IMG/VR virus record: IMGVR_UViG_3300033153_008183
Location: 1 to 64,000 of that record
Length of the DNA: 64,000 nt
Strand: one strand, 5' to 3'
Source of the DNA: a virus
A program made the translations under genes and the position numbers. Every line of letters begins with the position of its first letter. Positions within the stretch are counted from its first letter, which is position 1. The notes below the pieces were generated by a model that saw only the letters and a program-made list of their open reading frames with translations, did not search any database and was not told where the DNA came from. Of this stretch, positions 5,680-64,000 are shown one piece after another.

Positions 5680-5870
5680 ATTATATGGATTGTCCCATGC
5701 TACGTGATCAAGCTAAAAGGATAAATGCAGTTTTGACAACATATGGGTGTCAGGGGTGCTACTTATCTCCTTCACAATGTATGTTCAGAGAAAATGAAGG
5801 CATTTCATCTATGAAATCTTTCAGATCAGATTGTCGTAATCCTAATATGTCAAGTAAACCAAAGGAGTAA
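5664..5870 (+). CDS. Small Cys-containing hypothetical protein
   Basis: Overlaps the polymerase stop; same-strand packing. Confidence 0.5.
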   Translation: MEEPVNYMDCPMLRDQAKRINAVLTTYGCQGCYLSPSQCMFRENEGISSMKSFRSDCRNPNMSSKPKE

Positions 5871-55863: not shown

Positions 55864-56270
55864 ACAGAATCAAAAGCATCATAAATAATTTTCTTTTTAT
55901 GCAGCTTCGCTTCTTTTCTCATATTCGCAGTTCCACTTCCTCCTGGAAACAGAAAAACGTAATCAGTATAAGCAGCCATTTCCCGATTTCGATTATGGCC
56001 TGCAATACAGTTATATCTGCTTCCGTCCCATCTCTCTTTCACAATGCATGGATCCACAGTTAAATCATCCCATAAAGCCGGAAATGGTTTTACTTTTAAA
56101 TCCAGAATATCTGCACAGAATTCTCCAAACTCATCAGCCCCAGAAGCTTTCCCGGAAACGATTATTTTTATATTATATTTCCGAACCATTTTCCGCACTA
56201 ATTTAAAATCGGAAAGGGAACCATCAAAGTCTCTTCTTCCTGCTATCACGCAACGCTTATTATTTTTCAC
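55860..56270 (-). CDS. SLOG/YspA-like (DUF2493-like) protein
   Basis: IAGRRDF, IVSG.A.GAD, FPA.W, AG..RN..MA and GGSGT.NM motifs. Confidence 0.85.
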   Translation of the reverse strand: MKNNKRCVIAGRRDFDGSLSDFKLVRKMVRKYNIKIIVSGKASGADEFGEFCADILDLKVKPFPALWDDLTVDPCIVKERWDGSRYNCIAGHNRNREMAAYTDYVFLFPGGSGTANMRKEAKLHKKKIIYDAFDSV

Positions 56271-56551
56271 GAAGTGAACTCCTTACATATTTATTATAGA
56301 TTAAATAAATAAAAACGGTATTACTATTTTTACCGGAAAGAAATTATCTTTTTAATTTTTTACGTTTTTCGAAGAAAACGGTAAAGTATCTATAAGTTTA
56401 CTTATAGTACTTTACTCTAAGACTATGTTCTTATAGCTCGGCCTTTTCGACAATTGTTGATTTATGACAATAGTTGATTTTAATAAGTACAAAATAGTGA
56501 TAAATTTTAAAACCAACTATCTGCATATGGGTGCAAAAGTTGAATTACAAT

Positions 56552-56899
56552 TTATTCTGGAATTTCATATGCAGATATGGTAAATCCAGTATCATTCATA
56601 AGGAATCCCGGACCTGTAAACAGTACAGTTCTAAACTCTTTCCGGTTATCTACAACACTCCGGATTACCAGATTAAAAACCTGCAGAACATCTGGTTTTT
56701 CCGGCATGTTGTAATGGGATAAAATATCACATAGAACTTCTTCTTTTTTCCGCAATACAGGTATTTTATTTTTCCCTATTATCTCAACAGTCTCCCCCAG
56801 ATCCCTGGTTATCCCAACTCTGGTAATCTGCTCAATATTATCAATTAAAACATTACCATTTTCCGTATTCATCATCTTTAAAATCATAAAATCCTCCAT
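56552..56899 (-). CDS. Hypothetical protein
   Basis: 115-aa ORF ending ..FLMNDTG.TI. Confidence 0.6.
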   Translation of the reverse strand: MEDFMILKMMNTENGNVLIDNIEQITRVGITRDLGETVEIIGKNKIPVLRKKEEVLCDILSHYNMPEKPDVLQVFNLVIRSVVDNRKEFRTVLFTGPGFLMNDTGFTISAYEIPE

Positions 56900-57626
56900 A
56901 TATCTTAAATACTATTATACACGAATTCCGGGGAAATAAAACTAAAGATTCATATTGCTTGTTAAAAGTCATTTAAACGACAGTACAGGATTATGTTTTA
57001 TTATTTTTAGCACAATATCGTCAAAATTATAAAAGTATCAAATCGAATACAATAACAGTACAAGGCAAAAATCCAGTTTACACACATACAATGAAGAATA
57101 AACGTAATATTTTAATTAGCACAATATTGTCATACTCTCAAAAACCATATAAATACCCACATTTCTTATAAATTTTTTATAGAAAATAAGGATCAACTTA
57201 AATACAGCTCAGATTTACATATAAACACTGCAGAAACACTCTAAACTACTCCGTAGAAGTGCTACAGACAACAATAACAGCTGCAGGAGCAATACAGACA
57301 GCAGGACCGGAGAAAAGGTACCAGAAACACAGTAAGGAGTGTATAGAGAGGCAGGAGAAGCATATTAGGACAATAACTATAATAAAAATTTTTATAGTAT
57401 ACATAAGTAACATACTCTATAGAGAGGTATTATCATATAAAATTTAGAGTTAAAACCCCCACACCCCTATACCAGGTGCCCCTGCCCCCTGCTGCCTTTC
57501 TGCCCATACTACAATAGCAGATATCAACAATAGCCATATTATAACAATTGCTATATTGCTTGTGGGGTTGTCCTTTAATTCAATAGAGAATTTCATTTTG
57601 ATTTAACTCTATGCTATATATAGACT

Positions 57627-57660
57627 TGTTAGTAACTTGTTGATAATAAACTGTTGATAA
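57627..57660 (-). promoter_or_regulatory. Cluster of three DnaA-box-like sites
   Basis: Minus strand TTATCAACA x2 and TTACTAACA. Confidence 0.55.
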
Positions 57661-58190
57661 CTTACATGCAATTGTCACTTAGTTACAATTGTTGAATGAT
57701 TGCAATTGCATAATCTGTCTATAGCATAGTTTAAATGGGAAGATGTAAAGAGTATAGTTACCACTTCTTACTACTTAATTACATAGGTTTTATTATTTAT
57801 ATATTACTACTATTTCTATTGTTATACTTATTAAGAACTATCTTCAATATTACTATGCTTGTATTCTATTGTACTTATCCTGTTATAGTTTATTCTATTC
57901 ATTGCTATTATTCACTCTATTCATTGCTATTATATCTATGATCATTATACCTATGCATATCGGATTAAATTATATCTATATCTCCTTTTGTATCCTATGC
58001 AATAACTCTTGTATTCATCCGGTTATATTCTTACTTACTATCCTTGCAATTGTATCTATTCTATTATTCACTTATCTATCATTATTTCACTGTTCAAACT
58101 GGACAAAATTTCCCTAAAAACTACTTAATATTTGTACAGTAAAAAAATAATTTATTTTACTATTTATATGTCAAATGACCAATAAATCGT

Positions 58191-58219
58191 TTGACATATG
58201 AATCTATTAATATTATACT
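58191..58219 (+). promoter_or_regulatory. Strong sigma70-type promoter for the 3-gene early operon
   Basis: TTGACA-17 nt-TATACT; the -35 is part of the inverted repeat ATATGTCAAA...TTTGACATAT. Confidence 0.8.
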
Positions 58220-58341
58220 CATATTAGATAGTAAGTAAACAGATAAGTTTTTATTATCTTAAAAAGGCAGTTCTGACAACCTGCAAATATTGACATAAAA
58301 AACAGTGAATATCTTAGTATATATACTGTACCATTCAAATG

Positions 58342-58395
58342 AAAATGCTTGTGTTTATACCCTTTATTTACAAAGGGTATTTGCATGATTATTTT
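58342..58395 (+). promoter_or_regulatory. Conserved leader hairpin, copy 1
   Basis: AAAATGCTTG...TGATTATTTT lower stem; ATACCCTT/AAGGGTAT upper stem. Confidence 0.65.
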
Positions 58396-58433
58396 ACAAT
58401 CAAAATAAATAGAGTTTAAAAGGATGTTTAATT

Positions 58434-58604
58434 ATGACCGCAACAGAAAAAATGATAAGTAGATTAGACAATGCAAATAGATATCAGGCTGAAGTAACAA
58501 GAAACACAATTACACCAAAACCCGTAAATTACAGCTTTAATTCAGCAAGTGATTTTAATGTATTTGTTAATAGCAAAAAGTCTTTTTATGGGATAAACAA
58601 ATAG
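58434..58604 (+). CDS. 56-aa early protein (not in ORF track)
   Basis: AAGGATG RBS; MTATEKMISRLDNAN... Confidence 0.65.
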   Translation: MTATEKMISRLDNANRYQAEVTRNTITPKPVNYSFNSASDFNVFVNSKKSFYGINK

Positions 58605-58663
58605 TCAATAAATAATGGTGTATGCCGTTATTAAAAATAAATAAGGGAAATAGGTAAAACAAA

Positions 58664-59089
58664 ATGGAGACAACTAAAAAAGCAACATTTACAGTAAATG
58701 AATTGAAAGACAGTGTAAAAAGCAAAATGGAATTTGCCGGATTATATGCAAAGCTAGCAAGTGTAAAAACTGTTGAATACGGTATTAAGTCTATTATCAA
58801 AGCTGAAGAATTAGCAAAACAGACTGTTGAATTTTCAAGAGATAAACTTATTGAATTAAACAAGTTTTTTGAAAGTAGAAATATTAGTAAAATGGATCTT
58901 TTGACAATCATAATTGAAATTATCATCTATGCTGTTAGTATTATGTTGCTTACTAATACCGGATCTATCCTATTCTTAATAATTGCCTTAATAGATGTTT
59001 ATTGCCTTTCTTACAATTTGACCGGTTTATTCATGAATATAGCCTTAAACCGATCAAATAGAAAAACAGTAAAAGTACAAGCTTTATAA
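58664..59089 (+). CDS. Early protein with two C-terminal TM segments
   Basis: Hydrophobic LLTIIIEIIIYAVSIMLL and ILFLIIALIDVYCL. Confidence 0.7.
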   Translation: METTKKATFTVNELKDSVKSKMEFAGLYAKLASVKTVEYGIKSIIKAEELAKQTVEFSRDKLIELNKFFESRNISKMDLLTIIIEIIIYAVSIMLLTNTGSILFLIIALIDVYCLSYNLTGLFMNIALNRSNRKTVKVQAL

Positions 59090-59092
59090 TCT

Positions 59093-59150
59093 TAAAATAC
59101 TTGTATTTACAGTCTACCGTCAAAAGTAGACTGTCTTTATGATTATTTTA
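59093..59150 (+). promoter_or_regulatory. Conserved leader hairpin, copy 2
   Basis: TAAAATACTTG...TGATTATTTTA; upper stem ACAGTCTAC/GTAGACTGT. Confidence 0.65.
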
Positions 59151-59185
59151 CTATAATCAAATAAATATTATAAGGATGTTTAAAA

Positions 59186-59992
59186 ATGGAACAAAAAACG
59201 ATTATGAGTAAAGAACAAGTAAAGGAGAGCAGGGAAGAAAGAGAATTCCGGCTTGCAAGGGAAGGGAAGAATTCAGCCCGTAATTATGCTGATAGTATGA
59301 TTATGAGTAAAGAACAGACCGGTTTCTGTCCATGTCAATTATGGGTGAATAACCATGAATTCAAGTCTATAAAGTTTACTGATAACATTGTACAGGCTTT
59401 TATAGGCAAGAAAAGAAAGACTATTCTCTATGAAATATGGGGTAAAGGTGGATTTGATAAAGATGAAGTAAACGAAGTATCAACGTCAAGGTTCCCAATG
59501 AGCTATGATGATTTTAGCGAATTCATTTATAGCGAATCTTCCCTTATATTTGTTGAAGCTTTACAATCTTATAATGCCTTGAAAGGTAGAAGTTTTTTAT
59601 CATGGTACTGGTATAAACTATCTGATTTAATGGTACGATTTTGGAGACAAGCCCATAAATTAGGTATGTCTAAAAACAGTCTTCAGGACTATACTGATAT
59701 TGGACGACAAAATAATGTTGACAATTCCATGGTTATTTTCAGGGAAAGTCTATCTACTTATGGCCGGAATTTACTTCTTGAACTAGAAACCGGTATTGGT
59801 TTCAAGCTTAAAAAATCGGACGTCAATAAAAACGTTTCTTGTCATATGGGTAAACGAAATTTTTGGGATACCTTTATTAAAGATAAGAAAATTACTTTTA
59901 ATCAATTTTCTATTGCGTGGGAAGAAATAAGGGAAGAATTCCAAAATTTGGAATTGAATAATACAGTCTTTACCATAGGCAAAACAGCATAA
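59186..59992 (+). CDS. Sigma-factor-like protein (region 2-like)
   Basis: SESSLIFVEALQSYNALKGRSFLSWYWYKL resembles sigma regions 2.2-2.3. Confidence 0.55.
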   Translation: MEQKTIMSKEQVKESREEREFRLAREGKNSARNYADSMIMSKEQTGFCPCQLWVNNHEFKSIKFTDNIVQAFIGKKRKTILYEIWGKGGFDKDEVNEVSTSRFPMSYDDFSEFIYSESSLIFVEALQSYNALKGRSFLSWYWYKLSDLMVRFWRQAHKLGMSKNSLQDYTDIGRQNNVDNSMVIFRESLSTYGRNLLLELETGIGFKLKKSDVNKNVSCHMGKRNFWDTFIKDKKITFNQFSIAWEEIREEFQNLELNNTVFTIGKTA

Positions 59993-60015
59993 AACAAGCT
60001 GCACAAGCTTACTTT

Positions 60016-60051
60016 AGCCGGTTGATACTAATCTATCAATCGGCTTTTTTT
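60016..60051 (+). terminator. Intrinsic terminator of the early operon
   Basis: AGCCGGTTGATA/TATCAATCGGCT stem followed by a T run. Confidence 0.85.
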
Positions 60052-60214
60052 GTGTCTATAGGGAAGTGATAAAGCAATGAAAAAATTCAAAATTTGACTT
60101 TCCCTGGTGAATAAAAATTTTTGAAAAATTCTGTCCAGTCTATACCTGATAATCTATAACAAAAAAACTAATATTCTTATGCAAATAATTCATTTTAAAC
60201 TGATAGTATAGTAA

Positions 60215-60317
60215 CTAAAAAACAATGTTTAATTTATACATTGTTTTATAACATCCTTTATTTATTTTGTGTTACAATCCGGTCAAATTATATCATCGGA
60301 TTGTAACACGGTTTTTT
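60215..60317 (+). ncRNA. Putative trans-acting antisense small RNA
   Basis: Promoter-like element upstream; 13-bp perfect stem plus T run at the end; core complementary to the RBSs of three upstream genes. Confidence 0.5.
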
Positions 60318-60517
60318 GTACAATAAAGGTGATAATCAGTCAATTGTCGATTTGTTTTATTTGTTTATAATCAAATATTGACAAATAAAAAAAACAGTAA
60401 AATAATAGATTATTTTTAATAAATCAAATAGTAAAAAATTCTGATAGAAAATAACCGTAAAAAACAGTAGAAAATAGCAATGTTTTTATCGTGATTGTTT
60501 CACAAGCAAATTTGAAG

Positions 60518-60558
60518 TTATCCACAATGTCAACAGGTTATTAACAAAGTTATCCACA
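60518..60558 (+). promoter_or_regulatory. DnaA-box cluster
   Basis: TTATCCACA at 60518 and 60550; TTATTAACA at 60538. Confidence 0.7.
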
Positions 60559-60950
60559 AGTGATTACGTACTTTTCAAATTTTCGAATTTTTACATTTTT
60601 AAAAAAGTAAGCTCGGATTCGCAGGGAAAATTTGAATTTTTTTTGAAAAACAATAGAGAGTTATAACAGTAAAGAATAAAACGGTATTCTCTCATATAAT
60701 ACAACAGTGTATTTTTTCCAGGATGATGACTGGACTAAAATTTTCACGTACTTTTCCTGGTATGAATAAAATTAAAAAATTTATGCATTTTTTTCATATT
60801 ACACTGATAGTATAATGTACAAAAAAACAATTTAAACTTATAAAAAATAATTAAAAAATATCATGTAAATAATTCATTTTACACTGATAGTATACATGTA
60901 ATTAAACAAGTAAAAAATATATTAAATATTGTAAATCATGCACTTATTGT

Positions 60951-61016
60951 AAACAATTTGATCCTGACCCCTTCCCCTATATAGGAACATATTAGGGGAG
61001 GGGTGGTGGTTGTTTT
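60951..61016 (+). promoter_or_regulatory. Long GC-rich hairpin before the early gene cluster
   Basis: ACCCCTTCCCCT/AGGGGAGGGGT stem closed by AAACAATT/GGTTGTTT. Confidence 0.55.
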
Positions 61017-61054
61017 ACCCGAGAATTTCGATTTGATTTATCCTGGAGGATATT

Positions 61055-61174
61055 ATGAAAAGAAAAGACAGATCAAAAGCCCAGTCTGTAAAAAGACTTC
61101 AGAGATCCATACGAAAGTTTGGTATGACTGATAATAAAGTATCAGCTCTGAAAGATCTCAAACATTCTGTATAA
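61055..61174 (+). CDS. 39-aa basic peptide (not in ORF track)
   Basis: GGAGG RBS; MKRKDRSKAQSVKRLQRSIRK... Confidence 0.6.
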   Translation: MKRKDRSKAQSVKRLQRSIRKFGMTDNKVSALKDLKHSV

Positions 61175-61217
61175 ATGTTTGGACGGACAGTTTACGACTG
61201 TCTGTTTGATTATTTAT
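61171..61217 (+). promoter_or_regulatory. Conserved leader hairpin, copy 3
   Basis: ATAAATGTTTG...TGATTATTTAT with a G:U-rich upper stem. Confidence 0.6.
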
Positions 61218-61228
61218 TGGAGGATCGT

Positions 61229-61507
61229 ATGGAATACGGTGATTTGAACAGCATTTTACTTGAGGGTAAGGTGGTTGAAACCCATGAAAAAGATTTTGTA
61301 ATCCAGTCTTTCAGGAATGCAGAAGATGAGGCTGGTGAAACTATTAAAATTGAAAATCGATTTCAGATTATGACTCCATTCGGTAGAAAGTACACCCTTG
61401 AAAAAGGTATGAATGTACGTATTGTCGGACGGCTGCAAGGTGAAGAATATGCTGAAAGAATCACTATTATGCCTGATGCAATAGAGATTATGAGGAGTGA
61501 ACCATGA
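61229..61507 (+). CDS. Tail-less SSB/PriB-like OB-fold protein
   Basis: LNSILLEGKVV...LEKGMNVRIVGRLQ; GGAGG before ATG 61229. Confidence 0.7.
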   Translation: MEYGDLNSILLEGKVVETHEKDFVIQSFRNAEDEAGETIKIENRFQIMTPFGRKYTLEKGMNVRIVGRLQGEEYAERITIMPDAIEIMRSEP

Positions 61508-61896
61508 AAGGTATAAGAATCTCCGAATATGAAAAGAGAGAATTTGAAGGATCGGATGCGGATCTTGAAACTTCCCTCTTTGAATATGGATTGATATGGA
61601 AGAAATTCAAGAGAGCTGTGAAAAAGTATCCATGCGTGAAAGGTGAGTATTTTTTTGTTGCTTATGATGGCCCGGAAGATGGTAAGAATGGACGATGGAC
61701 TACAGGGTGGATTGATCCTAATAGATATCCCATAGAAGAGGAATTTGACTGGGTTGACTGGACAGAATTTTTAGACTGTCAAGGTCAGACCATGGAAGAA
61801 TTTAAATCAATGGATTTTGGTATGCAAGTTTACATGCTGACTAATTATTATGGTGCTGATAATACCATAGGTTCAACAGGATGGTGGGAGACATGA
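61504..61896 (+). CDS. Hypothetical early protein
   Basis: GAGGAG RBS; ATGA overlap. Confidence 0.7.
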   Translation: MKGIRISEYEKREFEGSDADLETSLFEYGLIWKKFKRAVKKYPCVKGEYFFVAYDGPEDGKNGRWTTGWIDPNRYPIEEEFDWVDWTEFLDCQGQTMEEFKSMDFGMQVYMLTNYYGADNTIGSTGWWET

Positions 61897-62399
61897 TGAT
61901 TAAATGTGATATAAAGGAAGATCGCATGGGCAATATTACTGTCTATCCGGTTGCAAAACGACACAATTATCCTTCCTTGTTTTTCCAGGAAGGATCGCAT
62001 TATGAATTTTTGGAATCTCTTTCAAAATATGTTCAAGAAGCTATAAATGAAGGGTACACTGTTAAAATATTATTATCTGATGAATACTTCATGGATAGAG
62101 ATTTTGAAGATTATCTTACAGAAATTCTCCCTCATGGATCTGGTATAGACTGTGACTGGGAATTTTCTGAACAGAAAGATGGTAAATTAGTCTGTAAGAA
62201 TTCATATCATGCAATGGATGAATGGGGTGGTTATATTGGATTCATAGATTTTTCCATACGATTTCACCGGAAAAATCCTACAGATTTTATATTGCAGTTT
62301 CATACAAATAAGGCCGGTTATCGGCAAATTGAAAGAACTGATCTCCGTAGTTATTTGGATGATATATTTTATTATGCATTGGAGAAATTTGAAGCATAG
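61893..62399 (+). CDS. Hypothetical early protein (LPHGSGID motif)
   Basis: ATGA overlap; LPHGSGIDC.W...NSYH.MDE.G.Y.G. Confidence 0.7.
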   Translation: MMIKCDIKEDRMGNITVYPVAKRHNYPSLFFQEGSHYEFLESLSKYVQEAINEGYTVKILLSDEYFMDRDFEDYLTEILPHGSGIDCDWEFSEQKDGKLVCKNSYHAMDEWGGYIGFIDFSIRFHRKNPTDFILQFHTNKAGYRQIERTDLRSYLDDIFYYALEKFEA

Positions 62400-62407
62400 G
62401 TGGTGTT

Positions 62408-62842
62408 ATGAACAGAAAACAAGAATTACTTCATGAACTAATGGTCATGGAGAAAGAGAACCCCACAAAGAAGATAACAGCTCCTGGGGACGCTTTCCCC
62501 TTGTATGCTGAGTATTGTGACAAGAAGCAGGAACACTTCATGGTGACTACCCTTAATGGTGCACACGAACTGATTAAGACCCATGTTGTAAGTATTGGAC
62601 TGGTAAATCGGACTTTGGTACATCCACGGGAGATTTTCCGTCCAGCGATAGAAGATAATGCAGCAGCCATAATGATTTGTCATAATCATCCAAGCTCTAA
62701 TTTGGAACCATCTATTGAAGATAAAGAAATCACAACTCGATTAATAAAAGCTGGTATCATTATAGGAATAGAGATTTTAGATCATCTGATAGTTTCTACA
62801 AAAGGATATTACTCATTTCTTGAAGAAAATTTGTTGCATTAA
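62408..62842 (+). CDS. RadC-like JAB domain protein
   Basis: QEHF, VHPREIF, HNHPS..LEPS.ED and LDHLIV motifs. Confidence 0.92.
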   Translation: MNRKQELLHELMVMEKENPTKKITAPGDAFPLYAEYCDKKQEHFMVTTLNGAHELIKTHVVSIGLVNRTLVHPREIFRPAIEDNAAAIMICHNHPSSNLEPSIEDKEITTRLIKAGIIIGIEILDHLIVSTKGYYSFLEENLLH

Positions 62843-62851
62843 TCATAAAAT

Positions 62852-63202
62852 ATGGAAAGGAATGAAATTATGAGTGAAGAAGAATCTGTATGCATTATAG
62901 ACTTTGCAGGAAATTATAATCAATGTGGTGTCTGGTGTGATTATTTTCCAAAGCACAAAACTGTAAAATTTGGTGGTGCATGGTCTGACATACCTAATAT
63001 GCCGATAGATCATGAACCGGAACAAGATGAATGTTATGACTGGATTAAAAAACATAAAGAATTTGATTACAGTCAATTAGATAAACTGACTATAGCAATC
63101 ATTGTGGAAGATAATCCGAATGACCGAGATAAAGTCAGTAGATTACTTAAACAAGCATTGAAGGAGAAAATGGATGAGGCAGCAGAAAAAATCCAGGATT
63201 AA
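62852..63202 (+). CDS. Hypothetical early protein
   Basis: Same-strand packing. Confidence 0.6.
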   Translation: MERNEIMSEEESVCIIDFAGNYNQCGVWCDYFPKHKTVKFGGAWSDIPNMPIDHEPEQDECYDWIKKHKEFDYSQLDKLTIAIIVEDNPNDRDKVSRLLKQALKEKMDEAAEKIQD

Positions 63203-63332
63203 AGTACTCAGAAAGAAACTTGCAGAAATTGAATCGGGGAAGTGGAGAGCTACCGATGAAGATAAAAAGAAATTGAAACAGGCTTTAATTGATGCTGAAT
63301 TGATTGAACCTGAAAAGGAGGAGAATTGTTGA
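63174..63332 (+). CDS. 52-aa charged protein (not in ORF track)
   Basis: AAGGAG RBS 7 nt before ATG 63174; open to TGA. Confidence 0.5.
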   Translation: MRQQKKSRIKVLRKKLAEIESGKWRATDEDKKKLKQALIDAELIEPEKEENC

Positions 63333-63451
63333 AATAGAGAATAGTTATATTACCGGTTTTGAATAGTGATTGGGGGATGGTGGGTTATTCATCATGGAAT
63401 TTCAATCATCAAGACCGGCTGTGTAAATATTACTCTTGAAAGGAGTGAATT

Positions 63452-63655
63452 ATGACTGTAGAAGAAATCAAAAAAGCTGTAGATGAGGGAAAAACAGTTT
63501 ATTGGAGTAGTGAAATATATCCAGTAATTAAAGATAGAATAGGACAGTATCTTATCAATTGTACAATATCTACTATGTGCATTGGATTAACATGGTTGGA
63601 TGGTGTTACTTTAAATGGTACTGAAGATGAATTCTTTATTGCTTTGGAAAATTAA
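63452..63655 (+). CDS. Hypothetical early protein
   Basis: AAGGAG RBS; MT.EEIKKAVD.GKTV.W. Confidence 0.7.
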   Translation: MTVEEIKKAVDEGKTVYWSSEIYPVIKDRIGQYLINCTISTMCIGLTWLDGVTLNGTEDEFFIALEN

Positions 63656-63665
63656 AGGAGTTCAT

Positions 63666-64000
63666 ATGAGTGATATAAGTTTAGATGATTGTAGTCTGGA
63701 AAATTTAAAAGAGATATTGAGTTCAAAAATGAGAGAACTTAAAGCATCTCAGGATTATATTAATGGGATCACAGGTTTTGCTAATGAGGCTCATATCACT
63801 GTTATTCTTGAACGTGTTAAAAGACAGACAAAAGAATGTGAAGAAATTGTGCGTCACATAGAAAATAGAATGACTATTGAAAAACAGATACTAATTGGAA
63901 GTATTCAGAAAATAACAAAATCTATGGGTAAAAGATTGTCTCATGAAATATTGAAAACAAAATCCATAGAATCGTTGCGGTTATTTCAAATGGATCTTCT
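63666..64000 (+). CDS. Partial hypothetical coiled-coil protein
   Basis: AAGGAG RBS; open to the window end. Confidence 0.6.
   Translation, partial: MSDISLDDCSLENLKEILSSKMRELKASQDYINGITGFANEAHITVILERVKRQTKECEEIVRHIENRMTIEKQILIGSIQKITKSMGKRLSHEILKTKSIESLRLFQMDL

What the first reader, a model, noticed from the sequence alone, without database searches (positions are those of the whole stretch)
58191..60317. Putative phage sRNA antisense to the RBSs of all three genes of an early operon: a possible feedback timer
Seen: a unit running from a consensus promoter (58191) through three genes (58434, 58664, 59186) to a terminator (60016). After it come a promoter-like element (60179-60210) and a 13-bp perfect stem with a T run (60269-60317), with no plausible + strand gene between them. 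The reverse complement of 60239-60269 is CAAAATAAATAAAGGATGTTATAAAACAATG. This matches all three translation starts: gene 1 CAAAATAAATA.gagttta.AAAGGATGTT.taattATG; gene 3 CAAATAAATA.ttat.AAGGATGTT.TAAAA.ATG; gene 2 AAAATAAATAAgGGA.aatagg.TAAAACAA.aATG (the g would be a G:U pair). Most other genes here use GGAG-type SDs, so the match looks specific. Inference: a ~100-nt trans-acting RNA silences the whole operon. The same promoter-like element recurs twice before the next early cluster, and gene 3 is sigma-like. The circuit could therefore be sigma, then class-2 promoters, then sRNA, then shut-off of the sigma operon. A multi-target type I antitoxin is an alternative, since gene 2 is a membrane protein.
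Basis: partly seen in the sequence, partly recalled or inferred. Interest (0 to 1): 0.88.

Follow-up and report, generated by a model that had tools for sequence, protein, structure and literature searches.

The report
Phage small RNA mirroring early-operon ribosome sites
Just after a three-gene early operon, this uncultured 81-kb phage seems to encode a roughly 100-base RNA whose open middle is the mirror image of the ribosome-binding leaders of all three genes, so it probably switches their translation off, though no transcript has been seen.

Summary

- **Motif:** AAATAAATA-N(0-10)-AAGGATGTT occurs three times: before gene 1, before gene 3, and inverted at 60250-60267. It occurred in 0 of 100 shuffles.
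- **Structure:** the + strand 60216-60318 folds as a 5' hairpin, an open 19-nt linker and a 17-bp hairpin with a T run (z -6.1).
- **Relative:** the only relative with this DNA (L005, gene 3 82% identical) has the same promoter-like element and architecture. All 22 pairs are kept, and 3 terminator pairs changed on both sides.
- **Co-variation:** 6 of 6 cognate RNA-leader pairings are more stable than swapped ones.
- **Specificity is moderate:** operon starts rank 3, 4, 5 of 123 by plain duplex. Structure-aware scores give 1, 22, 24 or 1, 4, 18. In the relative they give 2, 5, 7 or 1, 2, 3 of 23.
- **Gaps:** there is no transcript evidence and there are only two genomes. The "sigma-like" gene 3 rests on sub-threshold hits.

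The closest known cases are P1/P7 c4, P22 sar and the mycobacteriophage SAS/ESAS tags. Unchecked notes of this scan describe similar candidates on other phage DNA.

The parts
58191..58219 (+). Sigma-70-type promoter of the three-gene operon (TTGACA-17-TATACT)
   Evidence: 11 of 12 matches, joint best with 60378-60406 in 56000-64000. This is a consensus match only.
58338..58400 (+). Long leader hairpin before gene 1, with a conserved lower stem and a variable upper stem
   Evidence: 8 cassettes from 3 phages share the fold. 7 of 19 pairs have changes on both sides.
58401..58436 (+). Gene 1 start region, proposed target: AAATAAATA 58403-58411, AAGGATGTT 58420-58428, ATG 58434
   Evidence: Duplex with the linker is -17.3 kcal/mol, rank 3 of 123.
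58434..58604 (+). Gene 1, 56 aa, no known family; not shared with the relatives
58631..58666 (+). Gene 2 start region, proposed target, co-linear with the RNA's complement over about 31 nt
   Evidence: Duplex -16.9, rank 4 of 123. Rank 1 of 123 by both structure-aware scores.
58664..59089 (+). Gene 2, 141-aa membrane protein
   Evidence: hydropathy; 26% identical to the first operon gene of L005, E 0.007.
59090..59155 (+). Long leader hairpin before gene 3
   Evidence: (z -3.6).
59156..59188 (+). Gene 3 start region, proposed target: AAATAAATA 59159-59167, AAGGATGTT 59172-59180, ATG 59186
   Evidence: Duplex -16.2, rank 5 of 123.
59186..59992 (+). Gene 3, 268 aa, small phage-only family, possibly a very divergent sigma factor
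   Evidence: 8 clusters; sub-threshold Sigma70_r2.
60016..60055 (+). Intrinsic terminator of the operon
   Evidence: 12 pairs, loop of 6, T7 run.
60179..60215 (+). Promoter-like element of the RNA (TTCATTTTAAACTGATAGTATAG; extended -10-like TGATAGTAT)
   Evidence: 3 exact copies; 31 of 37 identical to L005; also at the end of L012. Not listed by the sigma-70 scan.
60219..60247 (+). 5' hairpin of the RNA, 10 bp
   Evidence: 9 of 9 consensus pairs unchanged in L005; 26 of 28 identical.
60248..60266 (+). Open linker with the anti-Shine-Dalgarno seed (invariant ATCCTTTATTTA at 60253-60264)
   Evidence: P unpaired 0.87; cognate better than swapped in 6 of 6.
60267..60318 (+). Terminator hairpin (17 pairs in the minimum-energy fold) and T6 run
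   Evidence: 13 of 13 consensus pairs kept, 3 with changes on both sides. Not listed by the simple scan.
60783..60894 (+). Two further copies of the promoter-like element before the next + strand gene cluster
   Evidence: 90 of 115 identical to L005.

Best explanation
Positions 60216-60318 (+) are the gene of a roughly 100-nt non-coding RNA. A phage promoter of the TGATAGTATA class starts it. It folds into a 5' hairpin, an unpaired U-rich linker that carries an anti-Shine-Dalgarno seed (AUCCUUUAUUUA), and an intrinsic terminator.

The linker, with part of the 3' arm of the first hairpin, pairs in two blocks with the unstructured leaders of genes 1, 2 and 3 of the operon just upstream. One block is the A-rich box and the other is the Shine-Dalgarno box, with a bulge between them. 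This pairing would cover the ribosome-binding sites and block translation initiation of the whole operon. The leaders are the stretches that follow the long intergenic hairpins.

The RNA most likely arose as an inverted copy of one such start region.

**Shown:** the sequence anatomy, the fold, conservation with compensatory changes, and complementarity beyond composition that differs in step between two phages.

**Inferred:** that the RNA is made, that it pairs in vivo, that the outcome is repression rather than activation or cleavage, and its timing. The promoter class is shared with the next gene cluster, which suggests an early-to-middle switch.
For: - **Motif is non-random:** 3 matches against 0 in 100 shuffles.
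- **Fold:** -29.8 kcal/mol, z -6.1 here; -29.4, z -8.8 in L005. In both the linker is open.
- **Consensus fold:** 22 of 22 pairs are kept in both phages. 3 of 13 terminator pairs changed on both sides.
- **Conservation:** promoter 31 of 37, 5' hairpin 26 of 28 and linker 15 of 20 identical. The third-codon-position identity of gene 3 is 155 of 269.
- **Ranks:** operon starts rank 3, 4, 5 of 123 by duplex energy, and 0 of 400 mononucleotide shuffles reach them. The accessibility-corrected score ranks them 1, 4, 18 of 123 here and 1, 2, 3 of 23 in the relative.
- **Co-variation:** cognate RNA-leader pairs beat swapped pairs in 6 of 6.
- **Strand:** one G:U pair in the terminator stem favours the + strand (read by eye). 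The + strand folds at -29.8 against -26.7 for the minus strand.
- **No conserved coding frame on either strand**.
- **Synteny:** the promoter-like element follows the operon terminator in 3 of 3 phages whose DNA reaches there.
Against: - **No transcript evidence:** no sequencing run could be listed.
- **Thin comparative base:** only two genomes carry the RNA sequence. The three leaders are paralogues, so the three matches are not independent.
- **Specificity is imperfect.**
  - Starts at 5685(+) and 56552(-) score better by plain duplex.
  - By cofold energy difference, genes 1 and 3 rank 22 and 24 of 123. The relative's genes rank 2, 5, 7 of 23.
  - The best non-self duplex genome-wide lies at 73376(+).
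- **Generic look:** the RNA's complement looks like a generic AT-rich start region. The same 21-base pattern occurs in 19 unrelated bacterial and archaeal contigs. As I read their flanks, they look like the reverse complement of ordinary gene starts; no gene calls were checked.
- **Simple scans are silent:** the promoter-like element is not a sigma-70 consensus match and the hairpin is not listed by the simple terminator scan.
- **Weaker seed in the relative:** the seed is less surely open there (P 0.42).
- **No further copies:** the covariance model found no further copy in the two records of distant relatives that could be searched (one 5% and one 81% complete).
Confidence: 0.5

Rival explanations
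1. The RNA is real, but the operon leaders are not its main or only targets. As a generic anti-Shine-Dalgarno, U-rich RNA it acts on other phage or host messages, or it titrates an RNA-binding factor.
For: - Non-operon starts score as well or better.
- The best duplex genome-wide is at gene 73393.
- The complement resembles ordinary AT-rich start regions in many organisms.
- A fourth gene (66888), behind the same promoter class, has a similar leader.
Against: - Cognate pairing beats swapped pairing in 6 of 6.
- The relative's three operon genes rank 1, 2, 3 of 23.
- Tight synteny with the operon in 3 of 3 phages.
- AAATAAATA lies within 40 nt of a start only at the three operon genes.
Confidence: 0.15
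2. It is a cis-acting leader or attenuator. The promoter fires, RNA polymerase stops at the hairpin unless a phage factor lets it read through towards the genes from 61055 on. This resembles the short terminated transcript before the late genes of lambda, or put-type RNAs (recalled, not checked here).
For: - The promoter class is the same as the two copies that precede the downstream cluster.
- A strong terminator lies directly after a short transcript.
- All downstream genes are on the + strand.
Against: - About 740 non-coding bases and two further promoter copies lie between the terminator and the first gene.
- It does not explain the two-block complementarity to the leaders or its co-variation.
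Confidence: 0.12
3. It is a DNA-level or relic element: an inverted partial copy of a start-region cassette with no RNA function. Examples are the leader of a decayed minus-strand gene, a protein operator shared with the leaders, or part of an origin next to the DnaA-box-like pair at 60518 and 60550.
For: - The complement reads as a complete start region, including an ATG.
- Leader cassettes are repeated and seem to shuffle genes between relatives.
- DnaA-box-like sites are adjacent.
Against: - The minus mini-ORF is not conserved: 8 against 2 codons.
- I saw no conserved minus-strand promoter when reading the sequence.
- Conservation is above the 58% third-position baseline, and stem changes are compensatory.
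- The spacing between the two blocks varies: 0, 4 and 7 nt in this window and 0 against about 6 nt in L005 (my reading). That suits RNA pairing with a bulge better than a rigid DNA site.
Confidence: 0.1
4. It is the antitoxin RNA of a type I toxin-antitoxin pair, with membrane protein gene 2 as the toxin.
For: - Gene 2 is a membrane protein.
- Gene 2 is the best-scoring target by both structure-aware scores.
Against: - Gene 2 is 141 aa, far longer than typical type I toxins (under about 60 aa, recalled).
- Genes 1 and 3 are matched as well.
- The context is an early operon of a phage with direct terminal repeats.
Confidence: 0.03

Closest known systems
c4 antisense RNA of phages P1 and P7 (and P22 sar RNA)
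   Same: These are small phage RNAs that pair with short complementary boxes around a ribosome-binding site of the phage's own message and block translation. Source: passages of review PMC12197685. That c4 uses two separate boxes is recalled, not checked.
   Different: - They control one antirepressor message in temperate phages, for immunity.
- This RNA has its own promoter and terminator.
- It matches three start regions of an early operon.
- It sits in a phage with direct terminal repeats.
- There is no sequence or Rfam relation: no Rfam family matched at E up to 1 except a chance snoRNA hit.
Start-associated sequences (SAS/ESAS) of Cluster K mycobacteriophages (PMC3203893; abstract and passages read)
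   Same: - A private conserved tag sits at the ribosome-binding position of a subset of non-structural genes.
- About half of the tags are preceded by an imperfect inverted repeat with a variable spacer.
- Several of those genomes carry a single copy of the tag on the opposite strand.

Here the A-rich plus AAGGAT tag, the long upstream hairpin and the single inverted copy match that layout.
   Different: - The tag sequence and the host group are different.
- Only 3 genes are tagged here (perhaps 4), against 11-19 there.
- The paper gives no function and proposes no RNA for the reverse copy.
- Here the reverse copy sits in a structured promoter-to-terminator unit.
PeSL promoter-terminator cassettes of T4-type phages (PMC2839356, PMC4122927; search listing only), and RNase III sites between T7 early genes (recalled)
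   Same: Repeated intergenic cassettes with a stem-loop lie between small early genes. Gene content between the cassettes differs among close relatives.
   Different: These concern the leader cassettes, not the antisense RNA. No promoter could be assigned inside the cassettes here. Cleavage by RNase III is untested.
T4 RegA translational repressor (review PMC3014915 seen in search listing only; mechanism recalled)
   Same: In function, one phage-made factor binds the start regions of several early messages and shuts off their translation.
   Different: RegA is a protein. Here the factor would be an RNA acting by base pairing.

Membership tests
Trans-acting base-pairing small RNA (own promoter, seed, intrinsic terminator) | A discrete transcript with its own start and a Rho-independent terminator | tested here: inconclusive
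   - A recurrent, conserved promoter-like element.
- A 17-bp hairpin with a T6 run.
- Neither is listed by the simple consensus scans.
- No RNA data: no run listed.
Trans-acting base-pairing small RNA (own promoter, seed, intrinsic terminator) | An unpaired seed complementary to the target start regions beyond chance | tested here: met
   - Seed P(unpaired) 0.87 here and 0.42 in the relative.
- 0 of 100 and 0 of 400 shuffles reach the match.
- Ranks 3, 4, 5 of 123.
- Weaker with structure-aware scores.
Trans-acting base-pairing small RNA (own promoter, seed, intrinsic terminator) | Structure and seed-target pairing kept through sequence change in relatives | tested here: met
   One relative only. 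3 compensatory pairs and 22 of 22 pairs kept. Cognate beats swapped in 6 of 6.
Trans-acting base-pairing small RNA (own promoter, seed, intrinsic terminator) | No protein-coding capacity | tested here: met
   - + strand frame from the ATG in the first hairpin: 8 codons here (read), 45 aa in L005.
- Minus-strand frame: 8 against 2 codons.
c4 antisense RNA family (Rfam) | A match to the family's covariance model | tested here: not met
   Rfam scan of 56000-64000 at E up to 1 gave only a chance snoRNA hit.
Type I toxin-antitoxin | A small hydrophobic toxin peptide (typically under about 60 aa, recalled) repressed by the RNA | tested here: not met
   Gene 2 is 141 aa. The RNA also matches genes 1 and 3.
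Sigma-70 family (for gene 3) | Pfam Sigma70_r2 or r4 at the gathering score | tested here: not met
   - Gene 3 itself gets no hit at E up to 1.
- Sub-threshold r2 hits in P0007 (15.4 bits) and P0014 (20.4 bits), against a cut-off of 24.
- 2 of 9 family members hit at E up to 1.
- Atlas: 4 of 30 feature hits fall in r2 clusters.
- Profile against PDB: 0 hits.
SAS/ESAS tags of Cluster K mycobacteriophages | The 13-bp consensus tag of that cluster at start sites | tested here: not met
   The tag printed in PMC3203893 differs from the motif here. The likeness is one of layout only.

The most novel reading that the evidence does not exclude
A virulent-type phage shuts off its whole immediate-early operon, including a divergent sigma-like factor, with one trans-acting small RNA. 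The RNA was born by inverted duplication of a start region and is driven by the same promoter class as the next gene wave. This would be an RNA-only early-to-middle translational switch. Together with the unchecked look-alikes this scan has noted in unrelated phages and the unexplained reverse-strand SAS copies of mycobacteriophages, it would be one instance of a widespread regulatory principle of phages that I did not find described.
Probability: 0.35. Interest if true: 0.8.

Novelty: new variant of a known kind. Interest (0 to 1): 0.62.

Why it matters
Temporal control in lytic phages is usually explained by proteins: sigma factors, anti-sigmas, RNA polymerase modifiers, and the T4 RegA repressor. 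A small RNA that silences a whole early operon by covering every ribosome-binding site would add an RNA layer to that picture.

It would also give a function to private ribosome-site tags and their lone reverse copies, which have been seen in other phages without explanation.

The hypothesis is directly testable. It offers a 12-base invariant seed, three natural targets, and a natural variant pair (this phage and L005) for swap experiments. In the two literature searches (15 of 40 and 12 of 30 papers listed; passages of one review read) I saw no case of a phage RNA matched to all start regions of its own early operon. The review's supplementary table of sRNAs without a function could not be opened.

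Tried and rejected
- **Phage database, DNA and protein:** no match to GenBank phages for the 3.3-kb region or for gene 3.
- **Pfam and PHROGs:** no family for genes 1-3.
- **Profile of gene 3 against PDB sequences:** 0 hits.
- **More relatives with the RNA:**
  - Promoter pattern in viral contigs: only the L005 contig.
  - Hairpin pattern: 53 contigs, of which only that contig has the seed or the promoter.
  - Gene 3 family in viral, metagenome and genome collections: only L005/L013, L012 (which ends just after the promoter) and L014 (1.1 kb).
  - Downstream gene 61504-61896: two distant phages without any of the motifs and without a match to the RNA model.
  - Seed pattern in genome contigs: 19 unrelated matches that look like the reverse complement of gene starts.
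- **Exact 18-mer of the seed in viral contigs:** 6 contigs, none of them the relative's contig; not examined further.
- **RNA evidence:** no RNA holder listed, and no run of any kind was listed.
- **Invertible-segment idea:** the inverted repeats as recombinase sites was considered and dropped. The repeats are short and split, and inversion would leave gene 3 without a promoter.
- **Promoter inside the leader cassettes:** I found no convincing -35/-10 pair by eye.
- **Unused output:** one search was a stray read of L001 and was not used.
Full report
**Setting.** The window is bases 1-64000 of an 80,917-bp IMG/VR virus record with direct terminal repeats, rated complete by CheckV. I found a 114-base exact repeat and 35% G+C. 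Late genes run on the minus strand up to about 56.9 kb, and from 61 kb on all genes are on the + strand. The finding lies in the gene-poor stretch between them.

**Observation.**
- The operon promoter is TTGACA-17-TATACT at 58191-58219.
- The three ORFs are at 58434, 58664 and 59186.
- The operon terminator is at 60016-60045.
- The reverse complement of 60239-60269 reads as quoted.
- The two-block motif AAATAAATA-N(0-10)-AAGGATGTT occurs three times: before gene 1, before gene 3, and inverted at 60250-60267. It never occurred in 100 shuffles.
- AAATAAATA occurs 11 times in the genome. Only the three operon genes have it within 40 nt upstream of a start.
- The 12-mer ACTGATAGTATA occurs exactly three times, all on the + strand, at 60199, 60803 and 60883.
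- A fourth, slightly different copy precedes gene 66888, whose leader resembles the operon leaders.
I therefore treat both as inferred from recurrence, conservation and folding.

**Anatomy of the candidate RNA.** The + strand 60216-60318 has three parts:
- a 10-bp 5' hairpin;
- a 19-nt open linker;
- a 17-bp hairpin followed by a T6 run.

The fold energy is -29.8 kcal/mol, z -6.1. The minus strand folds less well, at -26.7. By eye, one G:U pair in the long stem would be a C-A mismatch on the other strand. The invariant 12-mer ATCCTTTATTTA in the linker is unpaired with probability 0.87. No Rfam family matches. No reading frame is conserved on either strand.

**The targets.** Genes 1 and 3 are each preceded by a long hairpin. 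In L012 and L005 three genes each have the same feature.
- The lower stem is conserved and the upper stem varies with compensation: 8 cassettes, and 7 of 19 pairs with changes on both sides.
- After the hairpin comes an unstructured A-rich leader with the Shine-Dalgarno box.
- These cassettes recall PeSL cassettes of T4-type phages (search listing only) and RNase III sites of T7 early messages (recalled).
- Gene content between the cassettes differs among relatives. Gene 1 is not shared, whereas genes 2 and 3 are.
- In my crude gene call, 66 of 106 ORFs of 60 aa or more have GGAG or GAGG upstream. AAGGAT is found in 5 of 106, plus the 56-aa gene 1.

**Comparative evidence.** The gene 3 family is tiny: 8 clusters in each of two very large searches. 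DNA was obtainable for one 17.5-kb contig (L005/L013/L068, gene 3 82% identical), a 4.9-kb contig (L012) and a 1.1-kb one (L014).
- L005 has the same order: operon with leader cassettes, terminator, promoter-like element, 5' hairpin, linker, terminator hairpin (z -8.8).
- L012 ends just after the promoter-like element.
- In the pairwise alignment the unit is the best-kept part of the intergenic region: promoter 31 of 37, 5' hairpin 26 of 28, linker 15 of 20. Third codon positions of gene 3 are 155 of 269 identical.
- All 22 consensus pairs are kept, and 3 of the 13 terminator pairs changed on both sides.
- The linker flanks differ between the phages, and so do the leaders. Each RNA pairs better with its own phage's three leaders than the other RNA does, in 6 of 6 comparisons:

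| Leaders | Own phage's RNA (kcal/mol) | Other phage's RNA (kcal/mol) |
|---|---|---|
| Window genes 1, 2, 3 | -17.3, -16.9, -16.2 | -11.2, -13.3, -9.5 |
| L005 genes A, C, D | -15.9, -15.8, -17.0 | -9.4, -12.4, -14.6 |

**Specificity tests.**
- *Plain duplex energy of the linker against 123 start regions.* The operon genes rank 3, 4 and 5 (mean -8.9, sd 2.9). None of 400 mononucleotide shuffles of the linker reached their sum, or put all three in the best six. Two unrelated starts, 5685+ and 56552-, score slightly better.
- *Genome-wide.* The best non-self duplex is at 73376(+), inside the first codons of ORF 73393.
- *Cofold energy difference, which charges for target structure.* Gene 2 is rank 1, but genes 1 and 3 fall to 22 and 24 of 123. 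The relative gives 2, 5, 7 of 23.
- *Home-made accessibility-corrected score.* It gives 1, 4, 18 of 123 here and 1, 2, 3 of 23 in the relative.
- *Caveats.* The three sites outrank nearly all others, but not cleanly. The three leaders are paralogues. The RNA's complement also looks like a generic AT-rich start region: the same pattern occurs in 19 unrelated bacterial and archaeal contigs. By my reading of their flanks these look like the reverse complement of gene starts.

**Interpretation.** The most economical reading is a trans-acting antisense RNA, born from an inverted copy of a start region, that covers the ribosome-binding sites of the adjacent operon.
- The decayed-gene alternative is unlikely (see the rival explanations).
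- A rigid DNA operator fits badly with the variable spacing of the two blocks: 0, 4 and 7 nt here and 0 against about 6 nt in L005 (my reading).
- An attenuator reading does not explain the complementarity.
- The RNA shares its promoter class with the tandem copies ahead of the next + strand cluster. That suggests it appears with the next wave of genes, which would make it an early shut-off device.
- This timing is inference, as is the idea that gene 3 drives these promoters.

**Comparison with what is known.**
- Functionally it is closest to c4 of P1/P7 and sar of P22 (passages of PMC12197685).
- In layout it is closest to the SAS/ESAS tags of Cluster K mycobacteriophages, including their single reverse-strand copy, for which no function is known (PMC3203893).
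- It is not a sequence member of any of these.
- Earlier unchecked notes of this scan describe similar candidates in unrelated phages. They are leads, not evidence.

**Verdict.** An RNA gene is likely: I put its existence at about 0.7 and repression of the operon at about 0.5. The feedback-timer circuit is unproven. I class it as a new variant of a known kind.

Noticed in passing
58338-58400 and 59090-59155 (also L012 3046-3131, 3306-3402, 3842-3934; L005 2936-3030, 3566-3652, 3908-3996): A repeated intergenic cassette forms one long hairpin, with a conserved lower stem and a freely varying, compensated upper stem. An open A-rich leader follows it. Genes between the cassettes differ among relatives, as with shuffling cassettes or RNase III sites.
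   Followed up: partly
60518-60526 and 60550-60558 (+); 57638-57646 and 57652-57660 (-): Two exact TTATCCACA boxes lie 32 bp apart, right of the RNA gene. Two one-mismatch boxes lie on the other strand, left of the operon. They look like DnaA boxes and suggest an origin. The right pair is largely missing in L005.
   Followed up: partly
58098-58111 (+), 60126-60139 (-), 60729-60742 (+), 61757-61770 (+): An ACTGGACAAAATTT-like motif recurs near the promoters here. By eye it also recurs in L005 and L012. It could be a regulator's site.
   Followed up: no
genome 66826-66890 (outside the window): A fourth copy of the TGATAGTAT promoter-like element lies 43 nt before the ATG of gene 66888. That gene's leader (AAATAAAT, 3 nt, AAAGGTTGT) resembles the operon leaders.
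   Followed up: partly
60050-60178: About 130 bp between the operon terminator and the RNA promoter are absent from L005. L012 has a spacer of roughly 100 bp there. The stretch carries a CCTGG...ACTGGAC motif like the one before the promoter at 60783.
   Followed up: no
60960-61005: A G+C-rich hairpin (CCCCTTCCCC ... GGGGAGGGG) with a T-rich tail lies between the tandem promoters and the first gene of the next cluster (61055). It could be an attenuator.
   Followed up: no
genome 73376-73420 (outside the window): The best non-self duplex of the RNA linker genome-wide (-21.3 kcal/mol) lies here. It covers codons 2-8 of ORF 73393-73665 and includes a 10-base exact match.
   Followed up: partly
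57450-57500: A C-rich island (runs of CCCC) sits in an otherwise AT-rich non-coding stretch left of the operon.
   Followed up: no
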